Assembly: GCA_964347615.1 (NCBI GenBank)
Contig: CAYFZO010000002.1
Coordinates: forward strand, 22,261-86,260
Reading direction: 5' to 3'
Origin: an uncultured Chromatiales bacterium
Lineage (GTDB): Bacteria; Pseudomonadota; Gammaproteobacteria; Poriferisulfidales; Oxydemutatoraceae
Length of the DNA: 64,000 nt
In this document: positions 7,354-64,000 of the stretch, in pieces
How the letters are laid out: every line of letters begins with the position of its first letter
How positions within the stretch are numbered: the stretch's first letter is position 1
Made by a program: the position numbers and the translations under genes
Notes under the pieces: model-generated
The model's input: only the letters and a program-made list of their open reading frames with translations
Databases searched by the model: none
What the model was told of the DNA's origin: nothing

Positions 7354-7598
7354 GATTTTTTTAAACGAATCTTGCGCACCGTTGTTTATTTCATCATGCA
7401 AGCCGCCCACCAACTTCGTGCGCCCTGATAATATAAAAAAGCCGTTCGCCTCGGCGAGCGGCGGGCGCATTGTTGTTCCGCGAGGGCGGCAAAAGGTTAG
7501 CATTAATGCACAACCCCCCCCATAAATGCAAGTTTCGCCGAAATCCGGGGCATTTCACCGAACCCGCCCGGCGAATCCCGCCCGGGCGGTGCCGCAGG

Positions 7599-8972: not shown

Positions 8973-9432
8973 CCGCACCTCCGCCCTTTCGCGCCTGCTT
9001 CCGCTTGCGTCTGTCCTCGAAAAACGCCTGCAACAGGGCTGCACAATCCTCCGCGAGCACGCCGCCGCTGACCTCGAGACGATGATTGAACGCGGCAGCG
9101 GCGCGCAGGTCGAGCACGCCGCCGAGAACCCCGCTTTTCGGGTCGCGCGCGCCGAACACCAGCCGCCGAATCCGTGCGTGGACCGCGGCACCGAAACACA
9201 TCGCACAAGGTTCAAGCGTCACATACAAGACCGCGCCGGTGAGGCGGTAATTACCGAGCACTCGGGCGGCTTCACGCAAAGCCAAGACCTCGGCGTGGGC
9301 GGTGGGATCGTTTGCCCCGATCGGGGCGTTGCGGGCGCGGGCGACAACTTCTTGCCCCGCCGCGACCACCGCACCGACCGGGGTTTCGCCGGAATCGGCG
9401 GCAAGCTGCGCCTGCTCCAGAGCGCAACGCAT
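8950..9432 (-). CDS. tadA: tRNA-specific adenosine deaminase
   Basis: Cytidine/deoxycytidylate deaminase zinc motifs HAEVLAL and PCAMC are present. I trimmed the start to the ATG at 9430-9432 (MRCALEQA...). Lies downstream of guaA. Its 3' end overlaps mltF convergently by 23 nt. Confidence 0.85.
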   Translation of the reverse strand: MRCALEQAQLAADSGETPVGAVVAAGQEVVARARNAPIGANDPTAHAEVLALREAARVLGNYRLTGAVLYVTLEPCAMCFGAAVHARIRRLVFGARDPKSGVLGGVLDLRAAAAFNHRLEVSGGVLAEDCAALLQAFFEDRRKRKQARKGGGAVKSAPGH

Positions 9433-9466
9433 GAAATCGACGTCGGAGCGCGTCACGGCGAAGACC

Positions 9467-11072
9467 TCACTCCCATTCGATCGTCGCCGGCGGCTTGCCG
9501 GTAACGTCGTAACACACCCTCGACACCCCCGACACCTCGTTGACGATCCGCCGCGCGACCCCGTCGAGAAAATCCTCGGGCAGGCGCGCACGGCTCGCGG
9601 TCATGAAGTCGCTGGTTTCGACCGCGCGCAAAACGACGACGTGGCTGTACTCCCTGCCGTCCCCCATGACGCTGACCGACTTCACCGGCAGAAACACCGC
9701 GAACGCCTGAGACACCGAGTCGTACAAGCCTCCGCGTCTGAGCTCGTCGATGAAGATTCGGTCGGCCAAGCGCAGGGTCTCGACGTATTCCTCCTTGACT
9801 TCCCCTAAGACGCGAACCGCAAGCCCCGGGCCGGGAAAAGGGTGGCGACCGACGATCTCGTCGGGCAGGCCGAGTTCGCTCCCAAGCTTCCTGACTTCGT
9901 CCTTGAACAACGAAGACAACGGTTCAAGCAACTTCAGCCGCATGCGTTCGGGGAGGCCACCGACGTTGTGGTGAGATTTGATCAAGTGCGACGACTGCGA
10001 CGCCGCGGACTCGATGACGTCGGGGTAAATCGTGCCCTGCGCAAGCCAGGCGACCCGGGGAAATTTCGCCGCTTCCCTCTCGAAGACGTCTATGAACAGG
10101 CCGCCGATGATTTTCCTCTTCTCCTCGGGGTCGCTCACGCCGCGCAGCGCGCCAAAAAACGCGTCCTCGGCGCGCACGTGCACCAGATCAACGCCTACGT
10201 GCTTGGAGAAGGTCTCGACGACCTGCTCGGCTTCCCCCAACCTGAGCAGGCCCGTGTCAACAAACACGCAGTGCAGCTGCGGCCCGATTGCGCGATGGAT
10301 GAGCACCGCGGCCACCGCAGAATCAACGCCGCCCGACAAACCGAGGATAACTTCCTCGTCGCCGACCCGCCGACGAACCTCCTCGAGCTGCCGCTCGGCG
10401 ATCGCGTGCGGAGTCCACGACCGCCCGCAGCCGGCGATGACGGTCAAGAAACGCTCCAATATCGCGTTGCCGCTCGGCGTGTGCGTTACTTCGGGATGAA
10501 ATTGCAGGCCGTAATAACGACGAGACTCGTCGGCCATCGCCGCGACCGGCGAGCCGGCGGTGGCCGCCACCGCCTTGAATCCGGGCGGTATCTCGACCAC
10601 CTTGTCGCCGTGCGACATCCACACGTCCAAGGTATCGCTGCCGGCGTCGTGAACGCCGTCCAACAGCCGGTTGGAACACACCACCGACACTTGAGCGTGC
10701 CCGAATTCCCGGCGCCGCGACGGTTCAACCGCGCCGCCGAGCTGGTGCGCCATCGCCTGCATTCCGTAACAGATACCAAGCACCGGCACGCCGCGTTCAA
10801 ACACGCTCGGATGCACCGCCGGAGGATCGTCGACGTCGGCGGCGATCGATTCGGGCCCGCCCGACAAGATCACGCATTGCGGGGCGAACTCGGCGAGCAC
10901 GTCGGCGTTCACCGCCCGCCAGTCGAAAATCTCGCTGTAGACGCCGAATTCGCGCACTCGGCGTGCAATCAGTTGCGTGTATTGCGAGCCGAAATCCACA
11001 ATCAGCGCCTTGTCCCCGGCGCGCCCGATCGAATCCGCCGGGCGGGCGGCGGCGACCGCGCTGACCCGCGCT

Positions 11073-11080
<8 letters not shown>
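9467..11080 (-). CDS. guaA: GMP synthase (glutamine-hydrolysing)
   Basis: GATase motif [19 protein letters not shown] at the N-terminus and a C-terminal ATP-pyrophosphatase domain (SGGVDS), ending in the conserved TIEWE. The start is uncertain. My best candidate is the GTG at 11078-11080, which overlaps the guaB stop by 8 nt, because no ATG lies near the conserved N-terminus. Confidence 0.85.
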
Positions 11081-12527
<1,447 letters not shown>

Positions 12528-33829: not shown

Positions 33830-34419
33830 CACGAGACCTCCAGCAAACCGACGCGCTCGAACATCCGTGAGACGACGAACAACGGCAGCCCCATCACGCC
33901 GCTGTAACTGCCTTCGAGCCGCTCGACGAACGCCGCGGCGCGACCCTGTATCGCATACGCACCCGCCTTGTCGCGGTATTCGCCGGTGTCGAGATACGCT
34001 TCGATGCGCCCGGCACCGAGTTCGGCGAACTTGACGTCGCTGCAATCGAGACGAACGTCTTCATCGCCGCCGTGCAACAGCGCCACACCGGTCAGCACCC
34101 GGTGCATCCTGCCCGACAAGGCGGCGAGCATCTTCGCCGCCGCGGAGCGCCCGGCGGGCTTGCCGAAGACTTCGCCGTCAAGCACGACGGCGGTGTCCGC
34201 CGCAAGCACCGGCAAAGACGCCTCCTTGAGGCGCTTCGCTTCGCGCGCCTTGCAACGGGCCAGCCGCACGACGTAATCCTCCGGCGCTTCCGCCGACACG
34301 CGCGTCTCGTCTATGCCGACGGGGGCCGACTCACAGACGACGCCCAGCTGTTCAAGCAGCTGGACGCGACGCGGGGAAGCCGACGCCAGAATGACCTTGG
34401 GTGTACGCAACGCGGTCAT
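33829..34419 (-). CDS. maf: Maf-like nucleoside triphosphate pyrophosphatase (septum formation protein Maf)
   Basis: 196 aa; ILASASPRR...LGVV...DE and the conserved GKP and AYAIQG motifs of the Maf/Ham1 family. Confidence 0.85.
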   Translation of the reverse strand: MTALRTPKVILASASPRRVQLLEQLGVVCESAPVGIDETRVSAEAPEDYVVRLARCKAREAKRLKEASLPVLAADTAVVLDGEVFGKPAGRSAAAKMLAALSGRMHRVLTGVALLHGGDEDVRLDCSDVKFAELGAGRIEAYLDTGEYRDKAGAYAIQGRAAAFVERLEGSYSGVMGLPLFVVSRMFERVGLLEVS

Positions 34420-38280: not shown

Positions 38281-39159
38281 ATGCCCTCTGAAACCGTTTC
38301 TTTCATCGGCCCCGGCATCATGGGCGGACCCATGGCGCTGAACCTTCTCAAAGGCGGCCACCGCCTTTTCGCCTACGCGCGGCGGGCGCAGGCCCTCGAG
38401 CCACTGGCCGAGGCAGGCGCCGCGACCTGCGCCTCTTGCGCCGAAGCCGCCGCCGCGTCCGACTTCTGCATCGTCATGGTATCAGACACCCCCGACGTCG
38501 AAGAGGTCCTGTTCCGCGAGGACGGGGTCGCGGCGGGGGCACGCGCCGGCAGCGTCGTCGTCGTGATGAGCACGATCTCGCCGCAGGCGATTCCCGGGAT
38601 GGCCGAACGGCTTGCGCAAAAGGAGGTGCACCTGCTCGACGCACCGGTCTCCGGCGGCGACGTCGGCGCGCGCGCCGGTACCCTCTCGATCATGGTCGGC
38701 GGCGAGGAAGACGCCTTCAAACGCGCTTTGCCGATGTTGGAGTGCATGGGCAAGAACGTCGTGCACGTCGGCGCCGCCGGGGCCGGACAGGTCGCCAAGA
38801 CGTGCAACCAACTTCTCGCGGCACAGACCATCGCCGCGGTCGCCGAGGCGTTCGAGTTCGCACGCGCCGCCGGGGTTGACCGCGCCAAGGTGCGCGAAGC
38901 ACTGCTCGGCGGCTTCGCCTACAGCCGCGTGCTCGAGCTGCACGGGCAAAGAATGCTCGACGACGATTACGCCCCGGGGTTCAAGGCCGAACTGCATCTG
39001 AAAGACATGAACATCGCGGCGGATTTCGCCGCCGAGAGGCAACTCACGCTGCCGGGCACGGACGCCGCACGCGGCCTCCTGGAACAGTTGGTCGCCGAAG
39101 GCGGCGGCGAACTGGATTCATCGGCGATAGCCAAAGTGGTCGCGGCGAAAGCGCGGTAA
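38281..39159 (+). CDS. NAD(P)-dependent 3-hydroxyisobutyrate/tartronate-semialdehyde dehydrogenase-family oxidoreductase
   Basis: N-terminal Rossmann motif FIGPGIMGGPMALNL and the HIBADH-family catalytic region. Inserted on the opposite strand between holA and lptE. Confidence 0.8.
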   Translation: MPSETVSFIGPGIMGGPMALNLLKGGHRLFAYARRAQALEPLAEAGAATCASCAEAAAASDFCIVMVSDTPDVEEVLFREDGVAAGARAGSVVVVMSTISPQAIPGMAERLAQKEVHLLDAPVSGGDVGARAGTLSIMVGGEEDAFKRALPMLECMGKNVVHVGAAGAGQVAKTCNQLLAAQTIAAVAEAFEFARAAGVDRAKVREALLGGFAYSRVLELHGQRMLDDDYAPGFKAELHLKDMNIAADFAAERQLTLPGTDAARGLLEQLVAEGGGELDSSAIAKVVAAKAR

Positions 39160-51815: not shown

Positions 51816-53681
51816 TCACGAATCGCCGCGGGACGCCGCCGCTTCCCGGACCAAGGCCTCGACCTCGCCGCTGCGTCTGGTGTCGGCGGCCTGCTCGATC
51901 TTGTCGAGCAACGCCTCCAACGCCGACCACTGCGGCGGCGCGTTCTGCAGCCACAGGATTTTCGGATGGCCGGTCTCCAGGACGTTGCTGCCGGTCAGCA
52001 ACTCCTCGTTCAACTTCTCGCCGGGCCTGAGCCCGGTGTAGTGAATCTCGACGTCGCCCATCGGGCGGTCTTCGCTTTTGACGCTCAACCCGCTGAGGTG
52101 GATCATCTTGCGCGCGAGCTCGCCGATGTTGACCGGCTCGCCCATGTCGAGCACGAAAATCTCCCCGCCTTTCGCCATCGCCCCCGCCTGTATGACCAGC
52201 TCGACCGCTTCGTTGACCGTCATGAAGTAGCGCGTCGCGGCAGGGTCGGTGACGGTCAACGCCTTGCGTTCGGCGATTTGCTGGCGAAACAAAGGCACGA
52301 CCGACCCCGACGAGTCGAGCACGTTGCCGAAACGCACGACGCTGAAGCGGGTCTTCCCCGCCCCCGACGAAGCCAAGCCTTGCAGGATCATCTCGGCGAG
52401 CCGCTTGCTCGCCCCCATCACGCTGGTCGGACGCACCGCCTTGTCGGTCGAGATCAGAACGAACGTCGCGACCCCGGCCTTGACCGCGGCCTCGGCGACG
52501 ACGCGCGTGCCGAGCGCGTTGTTGCGTACGCCCTCGACGACGTTGCCCTCAACGATCGGCACGTGCTTGTAGGCCGCGGCGTGATAGAGCGTCTCGATCG
52601 AACCTTCGCGCAACACCGCCTCGATCAGGTTACGGTCGAGCACCGAACCCAGCACCGCCGTCAACGAATCCCCGCCGCCGTGCTCGCGCAGACGCCGCTC
52701 GATCTCGTACAGGGCGCTCTCCGACTGCTCCAGGACGACCAGCCGACGCGGGCCCAAATCAAGCACCTGGCGGCACAGCTCCGAACCGATCGAACCGCCG
52801 GCGCCGGTCACCAATACGTTGCGTCCCTTGACGTCGGCCTCGAGCGACGCACGTTGCGGCGGCACCGGGTCGCGCCCGAGCAAGTCCTCGGCGTCCACCT
52901 GCCGGAAGTCGGCGAAGTCCACCTTGCCCTGAGCCAGCTCCGACACCAGCGGCATCAGACGCACCCGCACCGAATACGGCTCGAGCTTGTTCACCAAGCG
53001 ACTGCGTTCCTCGTGCGAACGCGCCGGGATCGCAATCAACACTTCCTTGACGCCGTAGCGGTCGCGAATCTTTTCGAAGCCCTCCAGCGGATGCACGCGC
53101 AAGCCCGCGACGTGGCTTCCCTGCAGACTCGGCGCGTCGTCGAGAAACGCGACCGGCGACACTTCGGCGCTGTGCTGCAACGCGGTCGCCAACTGCACCC
53201 CGGAAGAACCCGCACCGTAAATCACGATGCGCTCGCCGGCGGTGTGCCGCAAAAGCCAGCTCGCGACAAGACGTCCGACGCCGACCAGGGCTAACACCAG
53301 CAACCCATAAATGAACACGACTGAACGCGGCAAGTCGGGAAACCGCAACAGCAAGGCAACCGATACCCACGCGAGCACCGCAACGATCACCCCTTTCGCT
53401 ACCATCCACAGAACCTGAAACCCGACGTGGCGCACCACCACCCGATACAAACCGAGATACGCGAAAAACGGCAAGGCCAACACCGGCGCCGCGACGAACA
53501 ACGGCCACCACTTGCCGGTCACCGCAACCGGTTCGCCGAGACGTAGCCAGAAAGCGAGCCACAACGACAACGGCACGACCACCAGGTCGAACACGACGGC
53601 GAGGAACACTTTCCATCCGCCCGGCAACTCGAGCAGCCACTCGACCGCCGCCGCCGCGGCATTCCTGACAAGCTTGGCCAT
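51816..53681 (-). CDS. wbpM: membrane-anchored nucleoside-diphosphate-sugar 4,6-dehydratase/epimerase (WbpM/PglF/CapD family)
   Basis: N-terminal TM helices plus a C-terminal Polysacc_synt_2 domain with the NAD-binding motif VLVTGAGGSIGSELCRQ. The start is likely MAKLVRNAAA at about 53681. Confidence 0.85.
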   Translation of the reverse strand: MAKLVRNAAAAAVEWLLELPGGWKVFLAVVFDLVVVPLSLWLAFWLRLGEPVAVTGKWWPLFVAAPVLALPFFAYLGLYRVVVRHVGFQVLWMVAKGVIVAVLAWVSVALLLRFPDLPRSVVFIYGLLVLALVGVGRLVASWLLRHTAGERIVIYGAGSSGVQLATALQHSAEVSPVAFLDDAPSLQGSHVAGLRVHPLEGFEKIRDRYGVKEVLIAIPARSHEERSRLVNKLEPYSVRVRLMPLVSELAQGKVDFADFRQVDAEDLLGRDPVPPQRASLEADVKGRNVLVTGAGGSIGSELCRQVLDLGPRRLVVLEQSESALYEIERRLREHGGGDSLTAVLGSVLDRNLIEAVLREGSIETLYHAAAYKHVPIVEGNVVEGVRNNALGTRVVAEAAVKAGVATFVLISTDKAVRPTSVMGASKRLAEMILQGLASSGAGKTRFSVVRFGNVLDSSGSVVPLFRQQIAERKALTVTDPAATRYFMTVNEAVELVIQAGAMAKGGEIFVLDMGEPVNIGELARKMIHLSGLSVKSEDRPMGDVEIHYTGLRPGEKLNEELLTGSNVLETGHPKILWLQNAPPQWSALEALLDKIEQAADTRRSGEVEALVREAAASRGDS

Positions 53682-53685
53682 CACG

Positions 53686-54759
53686 TTACGAAGAGGCGGT
53701 GTGGCGCGCGGTGAACAACACCGACGCCACCAACGGCGCGAGCGCGACGCCCGCCAACGCCGCACTCCATACGGGCCACAACGCCGCGGCGACCGCCAGC
53801 GGCGTCAGCCAGAACAAGTTGATCGCCCCAATCGCCAGCGAGACGGTGCGGTGCGCGTTCGCCCGCGCCTGCTCGGGCGACAACATCACCCCCTCGGCCT
53901 TTTGCAAACTGCGCGACAACCTTTGATACGCATGTCGGCGATGCGCGTGCGACAAACGCTCGCGGGCGACGACGCGCAACACCAGGGTCACGGTCGAATC
54001 GGTGAAGAACACGCCGAACAGGATCAGCCAGCACCACACGTTGACCCCGACCATCTCGCCCGGCCCCGAGGTCACCAACGCGAACTGCGCCAGCAGGAAA
54101 CCCAGAAACCCGCTCGCCGCGTCGCCCATGAAAATCTTCGCCGGCGGCCAGTTCCAAAGCAGGAAACCCGCGACCGCCGCCGCCAGCAACCACAAGTAAG
54201 GCGCCAACACGTGGCCCGGGGCCGCGACCGCAAGCAAGATCCACGCGCCGATCGCCATCGTCACCGCCTCGACCGCCGCGATGCCGTCTATGCCGTCCAT
54301 GAAATTGAAAAAGTTAAGGCACCACACCATCGCAATCGCCGCCAGCGGCCAACCCAACCAAGCCAAGTCAATCATCCACGGCCCCAGCGGAACGTCGGGC
54401 ACGCCGAAATACACGACGCAGACGAACGCCGCCGCGAAATGCGCCGCAATCCGAAACGACGGCGATAACGAACGACGGTCGTCAAGCCAGCCGACAACCG
54501 CGACCACCAAAGCGGTCAACCCGATCACCGAAGCGTCGAGCGCCTCCATCGCGGTCGGCATCGACCATACCGACAACGCCGCCGCGACGACAAAAAACAC
54601 GATGATGATCGCCACGCCGCCTCCGCGAGGCGTCGGCTTGAGGTGCGAACTGCGGGCGTTCGGGACGTCAAGCACCCGATGCTTCAGCGCGTAATCGCGG
54701 GCGACGCCGACGCCGAACACCGACAACAGGAACGAAACGACGGCAAGTATGAAAAGCAT
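53686..54759 (-). CDS. wbpL: glycosyltransferase family 4 (WecA/WbpL/MraY-like) undecaprenyl-phosphate sugar-1-phosphate transferase
   Basis: Polytopic membrane protein with the conserved NFMDGIDG motif. The order wbpL-wbpM matches the end of Pseudomonas O-antigen clusters. Confidence 0.8.
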   Translation of the reverse strand: MLFILAVVSFLLSVFGVGVARDYALKHRVLDVPNARSSHLKPTPRGGGVAIIIVFFVVAAALSVWSMPTAMEALDASVIGLTALVVAVVGWLDDRRSLSPSFRIAAHFAAAFVCVVYFGVPDVPLGPWMIDLAWLGWPLAAIAMVWCLNFFNFMDGIDGIAAVEAVTMAIGAWILLAVAAPGHVLAPYLWLLAAAVAGFLLWNWPPAKIFMGDAASGFLGFLLAQFALVTSGPGEMVGVNVWCWLILFGVFFTDSTVTLVLRVVARERLSHAHRRHAYQRLSRSLQKAEGVMLSPEQARANAHRTVSLAIGAINLFWLTPLAVAAALWPVWSAALAGVALAPLVASVLFTARHTASS

Positions 54760-54867: not shown

Positions 54868-55626
54868 TCACGCATCTTCGGAAACCGAGCGTTTGCGGCG
54901 GCGATCCGGCAGAAACTCCTCGTATATTTCCGGGTCCGGGTCCAACTCGACCACCTTGCCGTCGATCCAAGTCACCACCTTGGTTTCGGTCAGATAGGCG
55001 ATAAAGTGGGCACGTCTGTAAGCGCGACGGAGCGCCGCCAAGACACGCTCCTGATCCAAACCTTCCGGCTCGTCCTGTTTTTGTTCGGACACTTTTTTCA
55101 CTGCTGCTTCGTTTTTCCCTCTCTCCAGCACGGTCGGCGCTCGCCCGGCGTTGTCATACAGAGTCCAATCGTCAACGCAACGGCGATAGATTGCCTTGAA
55201 GTTTCCCAAGCCGCTTGCGAAACGGTGACGTATCACTTCTCCGGGAACGTCGTGCCCGCCTTGCCGCACCCTGAATTCTACCCGCCGGATCGCCTCTTCG
55301 GGAGCCGGAAGCAACAGGAATATCAGACTGACGCGGTATCCGTTCTCGCGCCATCCGTGAATCCGACGGATATAACCCCGCCCCGACAACGTCGTCTCAA
55401 ACGCGAAGTTCCTGCCGGCGCGGGCGTGACCGTCAATATCCTGCAACAGCAACCGCCCGGCGCGGAAACCCGAAGCACCCGACTGGAACGGAGACAAGCC
55501 CGCCGAAATCAAGTCCGCATTGACAAAGATCAAGCAATCCTTTTCGCGAGGCAGATACTCCCGGGCGAAAGTCGTCTTGCCGGCGCCGTTCGGCCCGGCG
55601 ATGATGATGATTTTCTTGGTTGGCAT
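54868..55626 (-). CDS. zeta-toxin/AAA_33-like P-loop kinase with ~70-aa C-terminal extension
   Basis: Walker A IIIAGPNGAGKTT near the N-terminus, plus a zeta-toxin-like core (ETTLS...). I set the start at ATG 55624-55626 (MPTKKIIII). No epsilon-like antitoxin ORF is recognisable upstream. Confidence 0.6.
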   Translation of the reverse strand: MPTKKIIIIAGPNGAGKTTFAREYLPREKDCLIFVNADLISAGLSPFQSGASGFRAGRLLLQDIDGHARAGRNFAFETTLSGRGYIRRIHGWRENGYRVSLIFLLLPAPEEAIRRVEFRVRQGGHDVPGEVIRHRFASGLGNFKAIYRRCVDDWTLYDNAGRAPTVLERGKNEAAVKKVSEQKQDEPEGLDQERVLAALRRAYRRAHFIAYLTETKVVTWIDGKVVELDPDPEIYEEFLPDRRRKRSVSEDA

Positions 55627-56006: not shown

Positions 56007-56552
56007 ATGAAGAAAATAAGCATCAAAGAGACGACATTCGAACGTCTCCGCCGCCACGCAAAGCCGCTAGAGGACACCTCGGACACCGTTATCAACCGGG
56101 CACTGGACGCGTTGGAGATGCGAGATGGAAACGCAGCACCCCCAGAGAGAGCAGACGATGAACGAAGAATAGACCCAAGCATGCTCCCAGACTTGAGATA
56201 CACCAAGATCATCGATGCATCCGTTGACGGAAGCGATATAGCACGACCAGAATGGATTCGCTTGTTCGGCCGCATCGTCATCCTTGCCACGAAAAAGCTC
56301 CCTGATCTTGAGAAAGTTAAGCAGCTATGTTCTGTGAAAATGGTCGAGGGATGGAAAAAGGATAAGGGCTATCATTATCTGGAAGAAATCGATAAATCAG
56401 TCCAGGGAAAGAGCGCGAACGCTACCTGCCAGTCAGTGGTAACAGCGGCGCAGGAACTCGGCATCTCCATTAACATCGGACTCCAGTGGAGGCGCAACAA
56501 AAAAGCGCCGCACCCTGGAGAACGAGCACGTTTGGTCATATCCGAATCTTAG
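56007..56552 (+). CDS. hypothetical protein with N-terminal ribbon-helix-helix-like DNA-binding domain fused to a ~130-aa unknown C-terminal domain
   Basis: I set the start at ATG 56007 (MKKISIKETTFERLRRHAKPLEDTSDTVINRALDALE has a beta-alpha-alpha pattern typical of Arc/MetJ/CopG RHH). GC is about 50% versus about 65% for the core. Confidence 0.45.
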   Translation: MKKISIKETTFERLRRHAKPLEDTSDTVINRALDALEMRDGNAAPPERADDERRIDPSMLPDLRYTKIIDASVDGSDIARPEWIRLFGRIVILATKKLPDLEKVKQLCSVKMVEGWKKDKGYHYLEEIDKSVQGKSANATCQSVVTAAQELGISINIGLQWRRNKKAPHPGERARLVISES

Positions 56553-57098: not shown

Positions 57099-57213
57099 GC
57101 CAGCCAAGAGAAGCCATCACGTATTCCTTAGCAAGGCGAAATTCCGCAATATCAGGAGAAGCTTCTATAAATCTTGTTCAACTGAACTCGGTGAACTCGC
57201 CCGGCACAATCCT

Positions 57214-58179
57214 TTACTTCTCCTCCTTTCCATAAGCCAGACGTCGTTCATGCAGCATTTTTTTAAGGCGGGTTGCCGTTACCGTCGTCTTGTCGGATAA
57301 GATCGAGTCTTTAATAGCATCGTTGCACGCTTGCGCAATTTCAGAGTGGCTGAGGCCTTCGGATTCTTTCACCACAATTTTCAAAGAAAAACCTTTATTA
57401 ATAAACTGTGCAAGGCGATTTTCTACGAGGCGCTTGATTTCATTTTCGTCGGGAAGGTGGTAGTAAAGCACGTCGTCAAAGCGGCGAAAAAGCGCTCTGT
57501 CCAAAATCTCAGGATTGTTGGTGGCTGCCACAATCAAACTGAGTGAATCATCTTGCTCGATAAACTGTAGGAACGAGTTAAGGACCCGCCGCATTTCACC
57601 CACGTCATCACTTCGCCCCCGTTCACCTCCGATTGCATCGAACTCATCGAATAGATATACCCCGCGTTGATCTTTGATTACGTCGAAGATTTGCCGAAGC
57701 TTGGCACTAGTCTCACCCATGAATTTGGTTACCAGCTTATCCATGAGGATCGTATGAAGCGGCAGATGCAGCTCACCCGCCAGAGCGGCTGCTGTCATCG
57801 TCTTGCCGGTACCCGGGGGGCCTGCCAACAAAAGTTTGCGGCGGTTGTTCAGACCATATTTCTTTATTTTTCCCTGCTGGCGATACTCCTGCAGGATACG
57901 GCTGATGCGATCTCGCATACCGTCGGAAACAATTAGATCCTTAAGCCGCTCCCGAGGTTCAGTGGAAATTACTAAGTCACTTAATTCTCGCTTAAAGGGG
58001 ACGATTTGAACCTGAGTCAATTTAGCCTTATCTATGATGGCGCGTATTTCACGCGCGAGCGAACCGTGCCCCTGATTTGCTTCATGAGCCGCCAACTGCA
58101 AGGCAACGGTAACGAACCGCTCGCGCTCGTCCCCGAAATGAGAACGTATAAGTGACTTTAGTTGATCAGCTGTGGCCAT
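57214..58179 (-). CDS. SpoVK/CbbX-like AAA+ ATPase (classic-clade AAA, PF00004-like) with ~110-aa N-terminal domain
   Basis: Walker A LLAGPPGTGKTMTA, Walker B VYLFDEFDAI, the second region of homology ATNNPEILDRALFRRF and the FMGETSAKLRQIF motif. Lies 157 nt downstream of hsdR on the same strand. Confidence 0.8.
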   Translation of the reverse strand: MATADQLKSLIRSHFGDERERFVTVALQLAAHEANQGHGSLAREIRAIIDKAKLTQVQIVPFKRELSDLVISTEPRERLKDLIVSDGMRDRISRILQEYRQQGKIKKYGLNNRRKLLLAGPPGTGKTMTAAALAGELHLPLHTILMDKLVTKFMGETSAKLRQIFDVIKDQRGVYLFDEFDAIGGERGRSDDVGEMRRVLNSFLQFIEQDDSLSLIVAATNNPEILDRALFRRFDDVLYYHLPDENEIKRLVENRLAQFINKGFSLKIVVKESEGLSHSEIAQACNDAIKDSILSDKTTVTATRLKKMLHERRLAYGKEEK

Positions 58180-58336
58180 GGCCGCTCACCGAGCCGGATT
58201 CTCGCACTTTATAGCCCACCGATTGCAAACCCAATCTCAAAAAGCGCGGCAAGCAAGGCCAAAGCCGCGTGGACAAGTGCCTCAAGTGCCTAAGTAATAC
58301 TCGGCGACAAGAAATCAGCCGCCCGGCGTCAGCCGG

Positions 58337-61300
58337 TTAATGGGTGGTTGCTTCGGCGTAGACCGGCGACGGGAGCGTCGGGTATGCGCGACGCACGTGA
58401 CGAAAGACTTCCTCCGATATCTTCCTGACTTCTTCCTCCGTGTAGAGGTTGGCGGAAAGTCCACTTTTGTCGTTGAAAAGAAACCTTTCGATGTCGGTTC
58501 TTACGCCGTCGCTCGTGCTCTGTTTCTCCGTCCACTGATAGGCGCAAAGCGATCGGGTTTTCAACGTCTTCAATAAGTCAACCGAAACGTTTTTGATCCG
58601 CTTGATCTCCGCCTTGCTCAAATCCGGCTTTCTCAGGAGGTCGAAAATCGCCAGCTGCTCCTCGTCCAAACCTTCTCGAACCGCCCGGCTTTCCTCCTCG
58701 TCCAACTCATCAGTCAGCTTGATCAACTCCTCAAAAACCCTCTCGATCGTTGCTTGGTCTTTATTGCGGTTGTATTCCTCGACCAGTTTCTCGTAGTGCG
58801 TCTGGAAGTTGGTGCGCATCGGATTTTGCTTCAGCAGGCGTTGCAACTTTTTTTCCACGATATGCATCAGCGTTTGGGTGGCGGTACGTCTCGTGGTGCT
58901 TCTCTCAAACTCCACTTTCAGTTTCTTGGCGTTGACGTGGCTGATATCGTAAAGCTTCGTGTCTCTGACCTCGCCGTCGGGAGGCTGAGCCACAATCGCC
59001 TCATCCACGACGCCGTGCAGCGCGCGGATGACGTCGCTGATGTCCGCTCTATCGCGGTCCTGTTGCAGGCTCTTGTAGATGATGCTGATGGCCTTGTGCT
59101 CCGCCCGGTACTCTTCCATGCCCTTGACGTTGATGCAGGCTTTGTAGCAGTTGAAAACCTCACGGCACATCACCTCGAAACGCTTGCGGGTTTCGTGGCT
59201 TTCGTTGACCGCCTCTTTGCAGGCTACGATGGCAGCGTTGAGAGCAAAGCCTTCCTGCCCGATGACGTCGTCCAATGAGGTCTGTCGCTCTTCAAGGAAC
59301 GCCCGCACCAGCGCAATCGCCTGAGCCAGCTTCTCCAGCAGCTTTTCGATGGGCTCGGTGGGACCGCCACCGCCTTCGCCCTCGCCCTCGCCCGGCTCTT
59401 GGGCACCAAAAGTCGCCAGCGCACGGCGCAGATGCTGGAGGATGCCGCAGTAATCCACGATCAAGCCGTTGGTCTTGCTTTCGTTGACGCGGTTGGCGCG
59501 CGCGATGGCCTGCATCAAGGTGTGCGCCTTGAGCGGCTTGTCGAGGTAAAGCGTCGAAAGGCTGGGGACGTCGAAACCGGTCAGCCACATCGCGCAGACG
59601 ACGGCAATGCGGAAAGGATGGTCCTGATGCTTGAACGCCTCGTCGAGCGGCATGGACACCTTGCCTTGAAACTCAGGCCTGCCGCGCATGGATTCCGGCA
59701 GGTCCACGCCGTCCTTGATGAGCCTGCGGTGCGGCCTGATGTCAATACCCCACTTGCGAAACGCCTCGACCTCGCCTTGCTCCTCGCTGATGACCACCGC
59801 CATACGGGTTTCTTTCATCCAGTTGATCTGGTTCCGGATCTGCACCGCTTCCTGTTCGTCGACGCATCGCTTTTCCGCTGCCTCCAACTCGCCGATGCGC
59901 TCGCGCCAATGACGGTCGATCAACTCGTACATGCGCACGCAGGTCACCTTATCTATGCAAACCAGCATCGCCTTGCCGCTTTCCCAAGCCGTCGAGTAGT
60001 GTTCGACGAAGTCCCGCGCGACCTGATCCAGGCGTTTCTCCGCGGTCATCACGTGGTAATCCCGCCTGAGCTCCTGCTCCAGACGCTGCACCACGTCTAT
60101 ATCCTCGGTCTCCAAATCCCCGAACTCTTCCAGCTTGTTCGCAATGCGCTCGTTCAGGTCGCCGACGGCGATGTCGAGCTTGTCGCCGCGGGCATCGTAG
60201 TAAAGCGGCACCGTGGCCCCGTCGTCCACCGCGCGCTGAAAGTCGTAGGTCGAGACGTATTCTCCGAAAACCCGCCGCGTGATCTCGTCGTCCTTGAACA
60301 ACGGCGTGCCGGTGAAGCCGATGTAACTCGCGTTGGGCAACGCGTCGTGCATATTGCGCGCGAGATCGCCGTACTGAGTGCGATGAGCTTCGTCGGTGAT
60401 GACAATGACGTCGTCCCGGTCGGAATACGCCTCTCCCGGCCCGATTTCCTGATTGAACTTCTGAATCAACGAGAAGACGTAGGACTTGTTCTCGCCGAGC
60501 AGACGTTTCAAATGCGTACTGCTCGCCGCCCGGCAATCGTCGCTCTCGTTCGTCACTTCGCAACCGGCGAAAGTCTTGTAAATCTGCACGTCGAGGTCGA
60601 GACGGTCGGTCAGCACCAGAAAGGTGAAGTTGCCGCTGAGTCTGCGATGCACCTTGCGGGTGAACATGACCATCGAATAACTCTTGCCCGCGCCCTGCGT
60701 GTGCCAAAAGACGCCCAGCCTGCCCTTGCGCGCCTTGCGCTCGCGCACCGCCTCGATCGCGCGGTTGACGCCGAGAAACTGATGGTTGCGCGCGAGGATC
60801 TTCCTTGTCTTGCCGGTGGAATCGTCGAAAAGGATGAAGTTCTCGAACAAGTCCATGAAGTTGCGCTTGTCGCAGACGCCCTTGAGCAAGGTCTCCATGT
60901 CCACCCTGCCTTCGTCGCCCTCGGCCAGCCGTTTCCATTCGTGAAAATGTCCCCACTCGCTGGTGATCGACCCGATTTTCGCCTTGTCGCCGTTGCCGAA
61001 CATGATGATCGCGTTGTAATGGAACAGATGCGGGATGGTGACACGATAGTCGGAGTAGTTCTTTTCAAAAGCCGTCCGGAGATTCCGATGGATGTTCTTC
61101 AACTCGACGAAGAGCAGCGGCAAGCCGTTGATGAACCCGACGACGTCGAGCCGACGGCGATAAAGATCGCCGCGCACCCAGAGCTCACGCACGCAGAGGA
61201 AGCGATTGTTCTCCGGCGCGTCAAAGTCAAAGACCCGCAGCCTCTTTCGGACCGACTCGCCCTTGTCGTTGCGAAAAGAAACCTGCACGCCGTCGCGTAT

Positions 61301-61588
61301 CAGCGCATACTTCTCCTTGTTGGCGGGCACGACGTCCTGCGAAGCGGTCGGAGCGGCAATCTTCCGCACCGCGTCGTCATAAGCCTCATCAGGCAGGCCC
61401 GGATTGAACTCGACGAGCTTCTCGCGCAGGGTGCGCGTCAGCACCACTTCATGGTCGGAAGCTCGACCCAGCAGACTGTCCGGCCCGAAGTCCTCCCTGT
61501 TGTAAGCGTAGACGGATTCCCAACCGAGCTGCTGCTCCAGATGATCCGCCATCGTTTTCTGGACGATGGTGTCTTCGGTGTAGTTCAT
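58337..61588 (-). CDS. hsdR: type I restriction enzyme R (restriction/helicase) subunit
   Basis: 1083 aa with an HSDR_N nuclease domain at the N-terminus, SF2 helicase motifs (GAGKSYSMV, VITDEAHRTQYG, FTGTP) and a C-terminal domain. ATG at 61586-61588 has a GGGAGAA RBS. No hsdM or hsdS is present in the window. Confidence 0.9.
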   Translation of the reverse strand: MNYTEDTIVQKTMADHLEQQLGWESVYAYNREDFGPDSLLGRASDHEVVLTRTLREKLVEFNPGLPDEAYDDAVRKIAAPTASQDVVPANKEKYALIRDGVQVSFRNDKGESVRKRLRVFDFDAPENNRFLCVRELWVRGDLYRRRLDVVGFINGLPLLFVELKNIHRNLRTAFEKNYSDYRVTIPHLFHYNAIIMFGNGDKAKIGSITSEWGHFHEWKRLAEGDEGRVDMETLLKGVCDKRNFMDLFENFILFDDSTGKTRKILARNHQFLGVNRAIEAVRERKARKGRLGVFWHTQGAGKSYSMVMFTRKVHRRLSGNFTFLVLTDRLDLDVQIYKTFAGCEVTNESDDCRAASSTHLKRLLGENKSYVFSLIQKFNQEIGPGEAYSDRDDVIVITDEAHRTQYGDLARNMHDALPNASYIGFTGTPLFKDDEITRRVFGEYVSTYDFQRAVDDGATVPLYYDARGDKLDIAVGDLNERIANKLEEFGDLETEDIDVVQRLEQELRRDYHVMTAEKRLDQVARDFVEHYSTAWESGKAMLVCIDKVTCVRMYELIDRHWRERIGELEAAEKRCVDEQEAVQIRNQINWMKETRMAVVISEEQGEVEAFRKWGIDIRPHRRLIKDGVDLPESMRGRPEFQGKVSMPLDEAFKHQDHPFRIAVVCAMWLTGFDVPSLSTLYLDKPLKAHTLMQAIARANRVNESKTNGLIVDYCGILQHLRRALATFGAQEPGEGEGEGGGGPTEPIEKLLEKLAQAIALVRAFLEERQTSLDDVIGQEGFALNAAIVACKEAVNESHETRKRFEVMCREVFNCYKACINVKGMEEYRAEHKAISIIYKSLQQDRDRADISDVIRALHGVVDEAIVAQPPDGEVRDTKLYDISHVNAKKLKVEFERSTTRRTATQTLMHIVEKKLQRLLKQNPMRTNFQTHYEKLVEEYNRNKDQATIERVFEELIKLTDELDEEESRAVREGLDEEQLAIFDLLRKPDLSKAEIKRIKNVSVDLLKTLKTRSLCAYQWTEKQSTSDGVRTDIERFLFNDKSGLSANLYTEEEVRKISEEVFRHVRRAYPTLPSPVYAEATTH

Positions 61589-61597
61589 TTTTTCTCC

Positions 61598-61616
61598 CGA
61601 TATACCGGATATATCG
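61598..61616. promoter_or_regulatory. near-perfect palindrome immediately upstream of the hsdR RBS (candidate operator)
   Basis: CGATATA-CCGG-ATATATCG (an 8/7-nt inverted repeat centred on CCGG) lies 9-27 nt upstream of the hsdR start codon in the 245-nt hsdR-S8 intergenic region. Confidence 0.3.
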
Positions 61617-61833
61617 TACTCACTAATGCCTTGAATTTCTTACCTCGCGTCCATACTTGAGCGGGCAACACAAGGCCGCCGCAGTTAAAAATATCAACTG
61701 GGATTTTCAACAAGGCGACGAGGAGGAATATCCTTAATCTCCGGCGCACGACCGCCTAACTCGGCAAGCCGCCGCGCACTTTCCCGTTCTATCAATGCTT
61801 TCAACACTGTATAACTTCGTATGAAAATATATT

Positions 61834-63993
61834 TTATTCATTTTCCGGCGCACCGATTCCAACGCGCGGAGCAATGCGCTCACGAATTTCCTCATAAATA
61901 GGAATACCAATAATAGGAATATCAACTCCTTCAACGATTTCAAGAGTTACAGCGAGTCCGTATGTCACAGGTTTTTGGACATCTTCCGCATCCTTCCGGC
62001 AATTTACTTTAATTGTGAAAATACCGTCATCCACTATCGCAACAGATTTAGAACCTTCGAACACCTCGTGCTGTACGGTCCCTCGCCGAGACGTATTGTT
62101 GTCAATCTCTCTGCGAGAGGTCTCGACAACATTTGGGTTATTCTGGTCGTTCACTTCAAACCACAACTGCGTAGAACGATAGGCTTGTGTATTCACCGCG
62201 ACAGGAGATATCCAAGCTAGCGTAACTGTAAGCCGTCGTCTTACATGCTGTGCACTCAGAGAAGGAGGTAAAGGCAAGCCAAAAAGATGGGCGCCCTCAT
62301 CCAAGAGTTCCCCATACCCAAGTACTGTAGCCCTCTGTGCTGTACACGCCAAAACACGAGTATGGTCTGGAACACCGTAACCCAACCACCGACTAATCCA
62401 TTTTTTTGTATCTCTTCCATCAATTTCGGGTTGTAAAGCAGCTTTGAGATGACCCCTTATCTCCCCCCAAGAACAACCATGAACAACCATGGCTTTGATA
62501 AGAGAAGTTATATATCGATCCGGTTCGTCCTCAGGCTTTTGCTCCTTAAATATCTCCAGCAGGGTGTCGTGACAAATCGCTGCCGTTCTGGAAGTCAGGG
62601 CAGCTGCATTACTGGTTCCACAACAATTCTTAACTCCATTTAACTTTCCACTTACACGGCCAAGCGTAGCTGTTCGATTTCCTGACGCATTCCCGCCGGA
62701 TGATATTTGAAATGTTGTATCGGGATTGTTTCCATGTATCTCCCGATAAAGAACTCGCCCTCCATTAAACAAAAGATCCGGTTTAACGGATCTTCTATAT
62801 CCACCCCCAAATGCAGAAATTGGGCTTGGCAACTGATGCTTAAACAAATCAACTGAACTTCCCTGATAATCTTCTTTCGAAGCATCGTGATGAAAAGCAC
62901 CAACCGCGATGCTATTGATGCTCTCACTTGGTGCCAAGATTCTTCTTTTCCGCTCATCCTCGTACAAAGCCTTAACAACTTGCTTTTCTTTTTCTTCATC
63001 CGACAGGCGATTAAACTCCGTTGTCGGCATGTTGATTTTGATATCCTCTTGATGGTTTCCCGCGCTAACGACAAAAAGAACCGGGTATTTAACGCTCAAC
63101 CAATCTAATAGCCTAGCTAAGGGACTTAACGCTCGTGTGAATTGCCGGCATCGGTCGCCAATTGAAAAATTGATTACTCTAATTGTCGGGGCGATGGCCG
63201 GAGTCGAACCTTCGCCCTCAAATATACGACGAACGGCTCGATGAATATAATCGACCATCAAAACATCACGTGGTAAAGCCTCCGAGGGTGTTTCGCTCGA
63301 TTGAACAGGTTTCATGACGGGGCGAACATAAACAGGACGAGAAAGCGGTGATGTCCCATCGTTCAAATCACCATGAACAACTAAAGACGCCATTGCAGTT
63401 CCATGTGCCCGATTTGAAACTGGATACTCTGAGGCATAATTATCCGGGTCATCGATTATCAATCTATTTTGGAGTAACTCATGATTTTCTAATGGAAGCC
63501 CATCTAAAATTGCTATAATCGGGTCCCCCTCTGGTACCGCGTCTTGTTCCAGCTTATGGCTAGATAGGTTTTCTTCCATCAAGTATTTTCCCGTCGTCAT
63601 CTGACCAACAGGGCGGACAAACATTACTTCATCACTCTTAATAAGATCTACATCCTGATGTTCGATAATGTTTTCAGCTTCACCTGCCGGTATTTCTGCA
63701 AGTAACGCATGATAGCTGATATCGTCAATTACGCAGCTGCTAAGAACCATCCCGTTAAGACTGCTAACTAAAGTTTCAATCCTTTCTTTAGCATTTCGCC
63801 TTTTTTCTTTGGCAGCACGAAACCACAACTCGACTTCAAATCGAACTGGGCGGTTCTGGTCATATTTCAAATCTTCTTCCCAAGCATTCAAAAGACCTGT
63901 CTCGTCAAGACGGTCTTCAACGTCCCACCTACGAATATTTCTAAGCCATTTGAAAACCTCTTTAAATTTAGCTTGACCTCTTTCAAACACCAC
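61834..63993 (-). CDS. subtilisin-like S8 serine peptidase, cytoplasmic (no signal peptide), N-terminally extended; probably runs past the window edge
   Basis: Catalytic triad motifs in order are Asp (IIAILDGLP), His (HGTAMASLVVHG) and Ser (GTSNAAA), with the oxyanion-hole Asn (VVSAGN). The reading frame stays open to position 64000, so the true N-terminus may lie outside the window. Confidence 0.8.
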   Translation of the reverse strand: MVFERGQAKFKEVFKWLRNIRRWDVEDRLDETGLLNAWEEDLKYDQNRPVRFEVELWFRAAKEKRRNAKERIETLVSSLNGMVLSSCVIDDISYHALLAEIPAGEAENIIEHQDVDLIKSDEVMFVRPVGQMTTGKYLMEENLSSHKLEQDAVPEGDPIIAILDGLPLENHELLQNRLIIDDPDNYASEYPVSNRAHGTAMASLVVHGDLNDGTSPLSRPVYVRPVMKPVQSSETPSEALPRDVLMVDYIHRAVRRIFEGEGSTPAIAPTIRVINFSIGDRCRQFTRALSPLARLLDWLSVKYPVLFVVSAGNHQEDIKINMPTTEFNRLSDEEKEKQVVKALYEDERKRRILAPSESINSIAVGAFHHDASKEDYQGSSVDLFKHQLPSPISAFGGGYRRSVKPDLLFNGGRVLYREIHGNNPDTTFQISSGGNASGNRTATLGRVSGKLNGVKNCCGTSNAAALTSRTAAICHDTLLEIFKEQKPEDEPDRYITSLIKAMVVHGCSWGEIRGHLKAALQPEIDGRDTKKWISRWLGYGVPDHTRVLACTAQRATVLGYGELLDEGAHLFGLPLPPSLSAQHVRRRLTVTLAWISPVAVNTQAYRSTQLWFEVNDQNNPNVVETSRREIDNNTSRRGTVQHEVFEGSKSVAIVDDGIFTIKVNCRKDAEDVQKPVTYGLAVTLEIVEGVDIPIIGIPIYEEIRERIAPRVGIGAPENE

Positions 63994-64000
63994 CCTTTCA

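What the first reader, a model, noticed from the sequence alone, without database searches (positions are those of the whole stretch)
57214..64000. Low-GC defence-like island: SpoVK-like AAA+ ATPase + orphan type I HsdR + large cytoplasmic S8 subtilase
The last ~9 kb drops from about 65% to about 50% GC. On one strand it encodes an intracellular subtilisin-like S8 peptidase of at least 719 aa, an HsdR restriction subunit with no hsdM or hsdS anywhere in the window, and a 321-aa classic-clade AAA+ ATPase with its own N-terminal domain. An AAA ATPase paired with an S8 subtilase is the signature of the IetAS anti-phage system described by Gao and colleagues. Here, however, the two genes are separated by hsdR, and the ATPase lies downstream of the protease. 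An HsdR cannot restrict without the HsdM2S methyltransferase/specificity complex, and none is encoded in this window. Possible explanations are a split or rearranged IetAS-like pair, an HsdR co-opted by another module, or an uncharacterised composite system in which the AAA ATPase and HsdR cooperate. The S8 gene runs off the window, so its operon partner may lie just beyond 64000.
Basis: partly seen in the sequence, partly recalled or inferred. Interest (0 to 1): 0.7.

Follow-up and report, generated by a model that had tools for sequence, protein, structure and literature searches.

The report
Restriction locus carrying embedded IetAS defence
This is an ordinary anti-phage island: a complete type I restriction-modification locus with a known protease/ATPase defence pair (IetAS) inserted in it, plus a leftover ATPase from a second, destroyed copy; it looked odd only because the window cuts the island in half.

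Summary
The three genes exist as described: an S8 protease that runs off the window, a 1083-aa HsdR and a 321-aa AAA+ ATPase. The puzzles disappear once the contig is extended. Two assemblies that match the window base for base add 16 kb beyond position 64000. They show hsdM, a Fic-like ORF, hsdS, a PsyrA-like gene with a 449-aa partner, and then a 331-aa IetA that overlaps the start of the S8 gene by one base. HsdR is therefore not an orphan, and the protease has its own cognate ATPase in the canonical IetA-then-IetS order. The ATPase in the window is a second, divergent IetA, only 27% identical to the first. Its relatives are followed by their own roughly 830-aa protease in 65 of 72 loci. 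Here that protease is reduced to a 45-nt remnant and replaced by about 1.5 kb of unrelated DNA. In a sister strain the same ATPase carries a stop at codon 6. About 10-12% of loci of both IetAS subtypes lie between hsdS and hsdR, and Payne et al. (2024) already described embedding of defence cassettes in type I R-M loci. Verdict: a known kind of island, of low interest.

The parts
61834..64000 (-). 3' 2.17 kb of ietS1, encoding aa 142-862 of an 862-aa cytoplasmic S8 serine protease (the IetS toxin/effector). The remaining 141 codons and the cognate ietA1 lie just beyond the window end.
   Evidence: PADLOC IetS PDLC04233: E=2e-280 for the window part, E=0 and 1098 bits for the full length. The catalytic motifs AILDG, HGT, SAGN and GTS are present. 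The full gene is seen in L001 5965-8553, which is 100% identical to the window over 15,664 bp.
58337..61588 (-). hsdR, the restriction/translocase subunit of a complete type I R-M system. Its hsdM and hsdS lie 6.6 and 5.1 kb beyond the window end.
   Evidence: Pfam HSDR_N, SWI2_SNF2/ResIII, T1R_D3-like and T1RH-like_C. PADLOC REase_I E=8e-162, with no DrmD hit. The nuclease motif D..ELK, Walker A GAGKS and the DEAH box are intact. hsdM and hsdS are found in L086.
58316..58335 (-). Terminator-like hairpin immediately after the hsdR stop codon. This is weak evidence.
   Evidence: Consensus scan. The total number of terminator-like sites is not above the shuffled expectation, so this is only suggestive that ietA2 is transcribed separately.
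57214..58179 (-). ietA2, an orphan second IetA-family classic-clade AAA+ ATPase (the antitoxin-type partner). It is intact but lacks its protease.
   Evidence: PADLOC IetA PDLC02196 E=3e-73. It is 27% identical to IetA1. Walker A, Walker B and the RRF arginines are intact. Homologues at 52-85% identity are followed by an ~830-aa S8 protease in 65 of 72 loci. The sister-strain copy has a stop at codon 6. dN/dS against that copy is 0.10.
57124..57168 (-). 45-nt remnant of the deleted ietS2, corresponding to aa ~234-250 of the ~828-aa partner protease.
   Evidence: tblastn gives 15/17 identity to IetS of L089. blastn gives 80% over 45 nt, collinear between the ietA block and the kinase block. Other homologues give E=4e-4. 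The profile HMM hit is weak (E=0.003, hmm positions 231-249).
56007..56552 (+). 181-aa SepA-family ORF on the opposite strand, inside the ~1.5 kb of DNA that replaced ietS2.
   Evidence: NCBIfam NF047386 T4SS_SepA_fam scores 171.9 bits against a cut-off of 110. The ORF is also called in the sister strain L088.
54868..55626 (-). 252-aa zeta-toxin/AAA_33-like kinase. It was the ancestral downstream neighbour of the ietA2-ietS2 module and marks the low-coordinate edge of the island.
   Evidence: Pfam AAA_33 and Zeta_toxin. It is 75% identical to the gene that directly follows ietS in L089.

Best explanation
The window holds the downstream half of a ~19-kb horizontally acquired defence island in an uncultured gammaproteobacterium. 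The island sits between polysaccharide-biosynthesis genes. Its backbone is a complete type I restriction-modification locus, in the order hsdM, a Fic-like ORF, hsdS, then further genes, then hsdR. Other defence cassettes are embedded between hsdS and hsdR: a PsyrA-like DprA/SLOG gene with a 449-aa partner, and a canonical IetA1-IetS1 pair.

Mechanism, inferred from what is known of these families. HsdM2S methylates the host's own DNA, and with HsdR it translocates and cuts unmethylated incoming DNA. IetAS acts independently as a toxin-antitoxin-like module: the AAA+ ATPase IetA1 restrains the cytoplasmic subtilase IetS1 until infection releases it.

The 321-aa AAA+ gene downstream of hsdR is not part of either system. 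It is the surviving antitoxin-type half of a second, different IetAS module (ietA2, ietS2, kinase). The protease gene of that module was replaced by unrelated DNA, leaving a 45-nt scar. Loss of the toxin with retention of the antitoxin is the direction of decay that a toxin-antitoxin pair tolerates.
For: Shown:
1. L001 and L086 match the window, or each other, with 0 mismatches over 15,664 and 11,332 bp. Together they carry hsdM, Fic-like_C, hsdS, a PsyrA-like gene, a 449-aa ORF, IetA1, IetS1, HsdR and IetA2, all on one strand.
2. IetA1 and IetS1 match PADLOC PDLC04232 and PDLC04233 at E=9e-149 and E=0 over their full length. The two genes overlap by one base.
3. All catalytic motifs of IetS1, IetA1, IetA2, HsdR and HsdM are intact.
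4. IetA2 is 27% identical to IetA1. Of 72 IetA2-type loci with enough downstream DNA, 65 have a full IetS2 directly downstream. All 60 IetA1-type loci have a full IetS1.
5. The closest intact relative, L089 (85% identical), has the order ietA, ietS, kinase. Only three collinear blocks survive in the window: ietA at 78%, a 45-nt piece of ietS, and the kinase at 79%.
6. The sister strain L088 has the same scar, a stop at codon 6 of ietA2, and an 8.7-kb cassette between its intact hsdR and ietA2.
7. The closest IetA2-type relatives (L007, L008, L011) show hsdM, YhcG, hsdS, ietA, ietS, hsdR. In L011 ietS is cut down to its first ~80 codons. Their HsdR is 69-75% identical to the one here. Among loci with at least 4.5 kb of DNA downstream of ietA, 6 of 60 IetA2-type and 6 of 48 IetA1-type have hsdR directly after ietS.

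From the literature:
- IetS is the toxin and IetA the antitoxin on pTiC58 (PMC5006074; PMC13069673).
- Defence cassettes embedded in type I R-M loci are well described. One embedded two-gene cassette was folded into PADLOC's IetAS model (10.1101/2024.01.29.577857 and its supplementary table 8).
Against: - The extension beyond position 64000 comes from metagenome assemblies rather than the window itself, although the overlaps are identical.
- The ietS2 remnant is short: 45 nt, with a profile E-value of only 0.003.
- ietA2 is intact in the window and shows purifying selection since the split from the sister strain (dN/dS 0.10; 30 synonymous against 11 non-synonymous changes). It may therefore still do something rather than being a dead relic.
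- NCBIfam's equivalog cut-offs for IteA and IteS are not reached (204.5 against 510 bits; 96.7 against 900 bits). These proteins are family members, not close equivalents of the experimentally tested system.
- No function was tested experimentally here.
Confidence: 0.85

Rival explanations
1. Composite three-gene system. The S8 protease, HsdR and the downstream AAA+ ATPase would act together as a split or rearranged IetAS in which HsdR has been co-opted without HsdM or HsdS.
For: The three genes are co-oriented and adjacent. A validated variant, ietHAS, needs an SNF2-family helicase in addition to IetA and IetS (PMC13069673).
Against: The protease has its own overlapping cognate IetA1 upstream. 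hsdM and hsdS are present. HsdR has the full type I architecture and hits only REase_I models, not DrmD. None of the 80 IetA2-type loci has hsdR upstream of ietA. In the sister strain 8.7 kb separates the intact hsdR from ietA2, and ietA2 carries a nonsense codon.
Confidence: 0.04
2. The orphan IetA2 is a retained, functional solo antitoxin. It would act as an 'anti-addiction' or cross-protective factor that neutralises IetS2-type proteases brought in by plasmids or other mobile elements, or that buffers IetS1.
For: The ORF is intact with all ATPase motifs. dN/dS against the sister-strain copy is 0.10, although both copies share the same ietS2 deletion scar. The substitutions therefore appear to post-date the loss of the protease. 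IetA is the antitoxin in the pTiC58 and SGI1 systems. IetA2-type genes without a detectable full IetS2 recur in 7 of 72 loci.
Against: The sister strain has a stop at codon 6, so the gene is dispensable. At 27% identity to IetA1, cross-neutralisation of IetS1 is unlikely. In other loci that lack the protease, transposase or integrase genes lie nearby, which fits plain decay. A dN/dS from 41 substitutions cannot tell which lineage was under constraint.
Confidence: 0.25
3. The embedded IetAS is functionally coupled to the type I enzyme rather than merely sharing its locus. It would act as a PrrC-like guard or back-up that fires when a phage inhibits restriction, or would use the HsdR motor much as IetH is used in ietHAS.
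For: Two IetAS subtypes only 27% identical at the IetA level both occur in the same slot, directly upstream of hsdR. The frequency is about 10-12% of loci, and the HsdR partners are diverse (25-75% identity). Embedded systems can complement or be regulated by their host system (TgvAB in PMC11411939; PrrC is mentioned). ietHAS shows that IetAS can depend on an SNF2 ATPase.
Against: About 88-90% of loci of both subtypes have no hsdR nearby, L003 for example. The slot between hsdS and hsdR is the generic insertion site for many unrelated cassettes. The cassette content differs between two sister strains, as expected for a cassette hotspot. The 245-nt gap between ietS1 and hsdR gives no sign of translational coupling.
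Confidence: 0.1

Closest known systems
IetAS anti-phage / toxin-antitoxin system. It comprises the IetA AAA+ ATPase and the IetS S8 protease, was first described on pTiC58, and was listed as an anti-phage system by Gao et al. 2020 (the last point is from my own knowledge; it is cited as ref. 19 in PMC13069673).
   Same: IetA1 and IetS1 form an overlapping, co-oriented ATPase-then-protease pair. Both give full-length PADLOC matches, and the Walker motifs and Asp/His/Ser triad are intact. IetA2 is also a family member.
   Different: Both proteins score far below NCBIfam's equivalog cut-offs, so they are divergent subtypes. IetA2 has lost its protease. No toxicity or phage phenotype has been tested here. 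The mechanism of IetAS is still unknown according to PMC13069673.
Type I R-M loci with embedded defence genes. Examples are PrrC in the E. coli prr locus, TgvAB in V. cholerae VPI-2, and the 'guilt-by-embedding' survey of Payne et al. 2024.
   Same: The hsdM, hsdS and hsdR backbone has same-strand cassettes inserted between hsdS and hsdR. An IetAS-like two-gene cassette was already found embedded and merged into PADLOC's IetAS model.
   Different: This locus carries at least two embedded cassettes, plus a relic downstream of hsdR. No dependence on the R-M enzyme of the kind known for PrrC has been shown.
ietHAS, an IetAS variant with an essential SNF2/DrmD-like helicase called IetH (PMC13069673).
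   Same: An SNF2-superfamily ATPase gene lies next to an IetAS pair.
   Different: Here the ATPase is a bona fide HsdR, with the HSDR_N nuclease domain, the T1RH-like C-terminal domain and cognate hsdM and hsdS. It lies downstream of ietS rather than upstream of ietA, and it hits no DrmD model.
Orphan antitoxins and 'anti-addiction' modules left after toxin loss. This is a general toxin-antitoxin concept taken from my own knowledge.
   Same: The antitoxin-type gene (ietA2) is kept while the toxin-type gene (ietS2) is reduced to a 45-nt scar. There are signs of purifying selection.
   Different: No neutralising activity has been shown, and the sister strain has already inactivated the gene.

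Membership tests
IetAS (protease in the window plus its partner) | Two adjacent, co-oriented genes, with the AAA+ ATPase (IetA) immediately upstream of the S8 protease (IetS) | tested here: met
   ietA1 is at L001 4970-5965 and ietS1 at L001 5965-8553, overlapping by 1 nt (TAATG). All 60 related loci show the same pairing.
IetAS (protease in the window plus its partner) | Significant full-length match to IetA and IetS profile HMMs | tested here: met
   PADLOC PDLC04232 gives E=9e-149 over residues 1-326 of a 330-position profile. PDLC04233 gives E=0 over 1-856 of 855 positions.
IetAS (NCBIfam equivalogs IteA NF042959 and IteS NF042956) | Score above the curated equivalog cut-off | tested here: not met
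   IetA2 scores 204.5 bits against a cut-off of 510. IetS1 scores 96.7 bits against 900. They are relatives, not equivalents, of the reference proteins. IetA1 was not scanned against NCBIfam.
IetAS | Intact catalytic residues: Walker A, Walker B and the arginine finger in IetA; the Asp/His/Ser triad and oxyanion Asn in IetS | tested here: met
   GPPGNGKT / FFDEF / RRF in IetA1. GPPGTGKT / LFDEF / RRF in IetA2. AILDG, HGT, SAGN and GTS in IetS1.
IetAS | Toxin-antitoxin behaviour and an anti-phage phenotype | not testable with these tools
   This needs expression and phage-challenge experiments.
IetAS (the AAA gene in the window, ietA2, as part of a working pair) | A cognate IetS encoded next to it | tested here: not met
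   Only a 45-nt ietS2 remnant lies downstream. In 65 of 72 homologous loci a full protease is present.
Type I restriction-modification system | hsdM, hsdS and hsdR in one co-oriented locus | tested here: met
   L086 carries hsdM at 7532-9646 and hsdS at 10001-11239, with hsdR starting at 18706. L086 is identical to L001 and the window in the overlaps.
Type I restriction-modification system | HsdR has a PD-(D/E)xK nuclease domain, an SF2 motor and a C-terminal assembly domain. HsdM has the NPPF motif. HsdS is a full-length specificity subunit. | tested here: met
   Pfam domains; the motifs ELK, GAGKS, DEAH and NPPF; PADLOC Specificity_I matches, the best E=8e-79, and one (PDLC03068, E=5e-51) covering residues 2-398 of 412.
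Type I restriction-modification system | Sequence-specific m6A methylation and ATP-dependent restriction | not testable with these tools
   This needs methylome sequencing or restriction assays.
ietHAS | A DrmD-like SNF2 helicase (IetH) encoded upstream of ietA-ietS as a dedicated third component | tested here: not met
   The adjacent SNF2-type protein is downstream of ietS. It matches only type I REase models and has cognate hsdM and hsdS.

The most novel reading that the evidence does not exclude
IetAS cassettes of two very different subtypes repeatedly occupy the slot directly upstream of hsdR, in about 10-12% of sampled loci of each subtype. The most novel reading still open is that this reflects functional coupling. 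On this reading IetAS would guard the type I enzyme, or use its motor, and would fire when a phage blocks restriction, as PrrC does. This would be analogous to the dependence of ietHAS on an SNF2 helicase. The orphan IetA2, still under purifying selection, would be a retained solo regulator or anti-addiction factor.
Probability: 0.1. Interest if true: 0.55.

Novelty: new member of a known kind. Interest (0 to 1): 0.15.

Why it matters
It matters little beyond annotation. The case shows how a window edge can make a standard embedded-defence type I R-M locus look like an orphan HsdR with a split IetAS. Two points have modest value. First, it documents that two distant IetAS subtypes both recur between hsdS and hsdR. 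Second, it gives a clean example of toxin-first decay of an IetAS module, in which the AAA+ antitoxin outlives its protease. If the minority reading were true, and IetAS were coupled to the restriction enzyme, it would offer a route to the still unknown trigger of IetAS.

Tried and rejected
1. Island borders. I looked for a tRNA or integrase border. ARAGORN gave two odd tRNAs more than 16 kb from the island. Rfam supports neither and both overlap long ORFs. No integrase was seen next to the island. The island is bounded by polysaccharide-biosynthesis genes.

2. Promoter and terminator scan. Counts were not above the shuffled expectation: 8 promoter-like sites against 6.1 expected, and 7 terminator-like sites against 10.6. 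Only the hairpin after hsdR is noted, as weak evidence.

3. Profile-HMM search for more ietS2 debris in the 1.6 kb downstream of ietA2. Only the one short hit was found (E=0.003). The rest of the segment is unrelated DNA.

4. hsdR debris downstream of ietA2 in the window. None was found. The sister strain does carry a 105-codon hsdR 3' fragment and an IetS2 C-terminal fragment upstream of ietA2.

5. Solved structures. None exists for IetS1. IetA2 matches only generic classic-clade AAA+ proteins. No structure prediction was run, because it would not change the verdict.

6. The window's genome is not among the GTDB species representatives scanned. The host was therefore placed only roughly: its MiaB is at most 70% identical to named gammaproteobacteria such as Sedimenticola.

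7. A split or rearranged IetAS, and a co-opted HsdR, were considered and rejected for the reasons given under the rival explanations.
Full report
**The observation.** Three large ORFs lie on the minus strand of the window's last 7 kb. An S8 protease ORF spans 61834 to beyond 64000, with 721 codons in the window. HsdR spans 58337-61588 (1083 aa). An AAA+ ATPase spans 57214-58179 (321 aa). Pfam gives Peptidase_S8 for the first. For the second it gives the full type I HsdR set: HSDR_N, SWI2_SNF2/ResIII, T1R_D3-like and T1RH-like_C. For the third it gives AAA. PADLOC calls them IetS (E=2e-280, starting at profile position 149, so about 145 residues are missing), REase_I (E=8e-162) and IetA (E=3e-73). 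The GC drop is real but mosaic. Window 1-54000 is 62.5% GC, against hsdR 58%, ietS 45% and the AAA gene 49%. No hsdM or hsdS is detectable inside the window.

**Extending the contig.** An exact-protein look-up of HsdR returned an ENA metagenome contig (L001). It is identical to the window over all 15,664 overlapping bases and continues 6,386 bp past position 64000. A second assembly (L086) is identical to L001 over 11,332 bp and continues a further 9.9 kb. The island reads as follows, all on one strand:
- two sugar epimerase genes (chromosomal flank)
- a Dam-like D12 methyltransferase
- hsdM (704 aa, NPPF motif)
- a 117-aa Fic-like_C ORF
- hsdS (412 aa)
- a PsyrA-like DprA/SLOG protein (PADLOC E=3e-129)
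- a 449-aa unknown ORF at 35% GC
- a VapB fragment and a 77-aa ORF
- IetA1 (331 aa; PADLOC PDLC04232 E=9e-149)
- IetS1 (862 aa; PDLC04233 E=0), overlapping ietA1 by one base
- hsdR
- the 321-aa AAA gene (IetA2)
- about 1.6 kb of other DNA
- a zeta/AAA_33-like kinase
- a family-4 glycosyltransferase and a WbpM-like dehydratase (chromosomal flank)

HsdR is therefore not an orphan. The protease also has its own cognate ATPase in the canonical order. All catalytic motifs of HsdR, HsdM, IetA1, IetA2 and IetS1 are intact, and IetS1 has no signal-peptide-like N-terminus.

**What the AAA gene in the window is.** IetA2 is only 27% identical to IetA1. It belongs to a very large, horizontally spread family whose members are 52-85% identical across many phyla. 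Of 72 genome loci with enough downstream sequence, 65 have a full ~830-aa S8 protease starting a few bases after the ATPase gene. The closest intact relative, L089 (85% identical), has the order ietA, ietS (828 aa), then a kinase 75% identical to the window's kinase. At the DNA level, only three collinear blocks of that module survive in the window: ietA at 78%, a 45-nt piece of ietS (window 57124-57168, matching IetS residues ~234-250 at 15/17), and the kinase at 79%. The remaining ~1.5 kb is unrelated and carries a SepA-family ORF on the opposite strand. A profile HMM built from 61 IetS2 proteins finds only that one short remnant (E=0.003).

IetA2 is therefore the surviving half of a second IetAS module whose protease was destroyed. 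This is the expected direction of decay, because IetS is the toxin and IetA the antitoxin in the pTiC58 and SGI1 systems. A sister strain (L088, about 96% identical in DNA with the same chromosomal flanks) carries the same scar and a CAA-to-TAA stop at codon 6 of ietA2. It also has an 8.7-kb PsyrTA-like cassette between its intact hsdR and ietA2. However, dN/dS between the two ietA2 copies is 0.10 (30 synonymous and 11 non-synonymous changes). The orphan was thus under constraint for much of the time since the protease was lost. A residual function as a solo antitoxin cannot be excluded.

**Is the IetAS-HsdR adjacency special?** The nearest IetA2-type relatives (L007, L008, L011; 76-77% identical) show hsdM, a YhcG/DUF1016 nuclease, hsdS, ietA, ietS and hsdR. 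In L011 ietS is cut down to its first ~80 codons. Their HsdR is 69-75% identical to the window's. Among loci with at least 4.5 kb of DNA downstream of ietA, 6 of 60 IetA2-type and 6 of 48 IetA1-type have hsdR directly after ietS. Several of these also have hsdM and hsdS upstream. No locus has hsdR upstream of ietA, as in the window. Embedding between hsdS and hsdR is therefore recurrent but a minority state. Most IetAS pairs are free-standing.

This matches published work. Type I R-M, BREX and DISARM loci commonly carry same-strand embedded defence cassettes (Payne et al., 10.1101/2024.01.29.577857). That study's supplementary table 8 lists a two-gene cassette, CAS_00044 (count 514), with the decision 'Incorporate into IetAS model'. 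I infer that this is the origin of the PDLC0423x models that best match IetA1 and IetS1. TgvAB in the Vibrio cholerae VPI-2 type I locus is a characterised example of such embedding. A recent paper describes ietHAS, an IetAS variant that needs a DrmD-like SNF2 helicase. The HsdR here differs from that helicase. It is a complete type I R subunit with cognate hsdM and hsdS, it lies downstream of ietS, and it hits no DrmD model.

**Mechanism.** What is shown is gene content, order, intact motifs and the comparative pattern. The rest is inferred from family knowledge. HsdM2S1 methylates a bipartite target, and with HsdR it translocates and cleaves unmodified DNA. IetA1 restrains the cytoplasmic subtilase IetS1 until infection, after which proteolysis aborts or blocks phage growth. 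The trigger and the substrates of IetAS are unknown in the literature. The embedded cassettes probably share the hsd operon's regulation and mobility but act independently. IetA2 has no partner, and it is either decaying or acting as a spare antitoxin.

**Membership.** The pair IetA1-IetS1 meets the IetAS criteria that can be tested here: adjacency and order, PADLOC profile matches, and catalytic residues. NCBIfam's strict equivalog cut-offs are not met for the two proteins scanned: IetA2 scores 204.5 bits against 510, and IetS1 scores 96.7 against 900. These are divergent subtypes. The type I R-M criteria on gene set and domain architecture are met. The ietHAS criteria are not met.

**Verdict.** The 'orphan HsdR / split IetAS / composite system' reading is an artefact of that edge. 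The locus is a new example of a known kind: a type I R-M locus with embedded IetAS and other cassettes, plus a toxin-less IetA relic. Interest is low (0.15). The only reading with some novelty is functional coupling of the embedded IetAS to the restriction enzyme, or a working solo IetA antitoxin. It has weak support (about 0.1).

Noticed in passing
L001 1460-4013 (beyond the window end; virtual window coordinates ~66374-68927): A PsyrA-like DprA/SLOG protein (PADLOC PsyrA E=3e-129; weaker hits to ShosA) is followed by a 449-aa ORF at only 35% GC. That ORF has no Pfam, PADLOC or NCBIfam match, in place of the usual PsyrT helicase or ShosT phosphoribosyltransferase. It may be a new toxin partner for a DprA-like antitoxin. 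About 80% similar DNA occurs inside a 686-aa ORF in the sister strain L088.
   Followed up: partly
window 56007-56552 (+): A 181-aa ORF matches NCBIfam T4SS_SepA_fam above its cut-off (171.9 bits against 110). It lies in the DNA that replaced ietS2 and is conserved in the sister strain. Its role in a defence island is unexplained.
   Followed up: partly
window 54868-55626 (-): A 252-aa zeta-toxin/AAA_33-like kinase is 75% identical to the gene that directly follows ietS in L089. The kinase may therefore be a recurrent third neighbour of IetA2-type IetAS modules.
   Followed up: partly
window ~51816-54759 and L086 3979-5958: The ~19-kb defence island is inserted between two sugar epimerase genes on one side and a family-4 glycosyltransferase plus a WbpM-like dehydratase on the other. 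It thus lies inside or at the edge of a surface-polysaccharide gene cluster. No tRNA or integrase marks its borders.
   Followed up: partly
L088 1-9740 (sister strain): The sister strain has a second, 3'-terminal fragment of hsdR (codons 979-1083, 91% identical). This fragment is preceded by an IetS2 C-terminal fragment. An 8.7-kb cassette lies between the intact hsdR and that fragment and carries a helicase-PRTase gene and a DprA gene (a PsyrTA-like pair). This suggests cassette exchange by recombination at the 3' end of hsdR, and an older ietS2-hsdR junction.
   Followed up: partly
L086 6285-7214 and 9643-9996: A Dam-like D12 methyltransferase lies just upstream of hsdM, with no obvious partner endonuclease. 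A 117-aa Fic-like_C ORF is wedged between hsdM and hsdS.
   Followed up: no
window 34036-34127 and 38322-38418 (-): ARAGORN calls a 92-nt tRNA-Ser(GCT) and an unusually long 97-nt tRNA-Gly(GCC). Rfam finds no tRNA there at the gathering threshold or at E<=1, and both calls overlap long ORFs. They are probably false positives.
   Followed up: yes
L011 10973-11209; L082 10970-11452; L058, L063, L064, L069: Other genomes also carry IetA2-type genes whose protease is truncated or absent (7 of 72 loci). An IS66 transposase or an integrase lies nearby in some of them. All 60 IetA1-type loci have a full protease. Toxin-first decay therefore seems to recur in the IetA2 subtype.
   Followed up: partly
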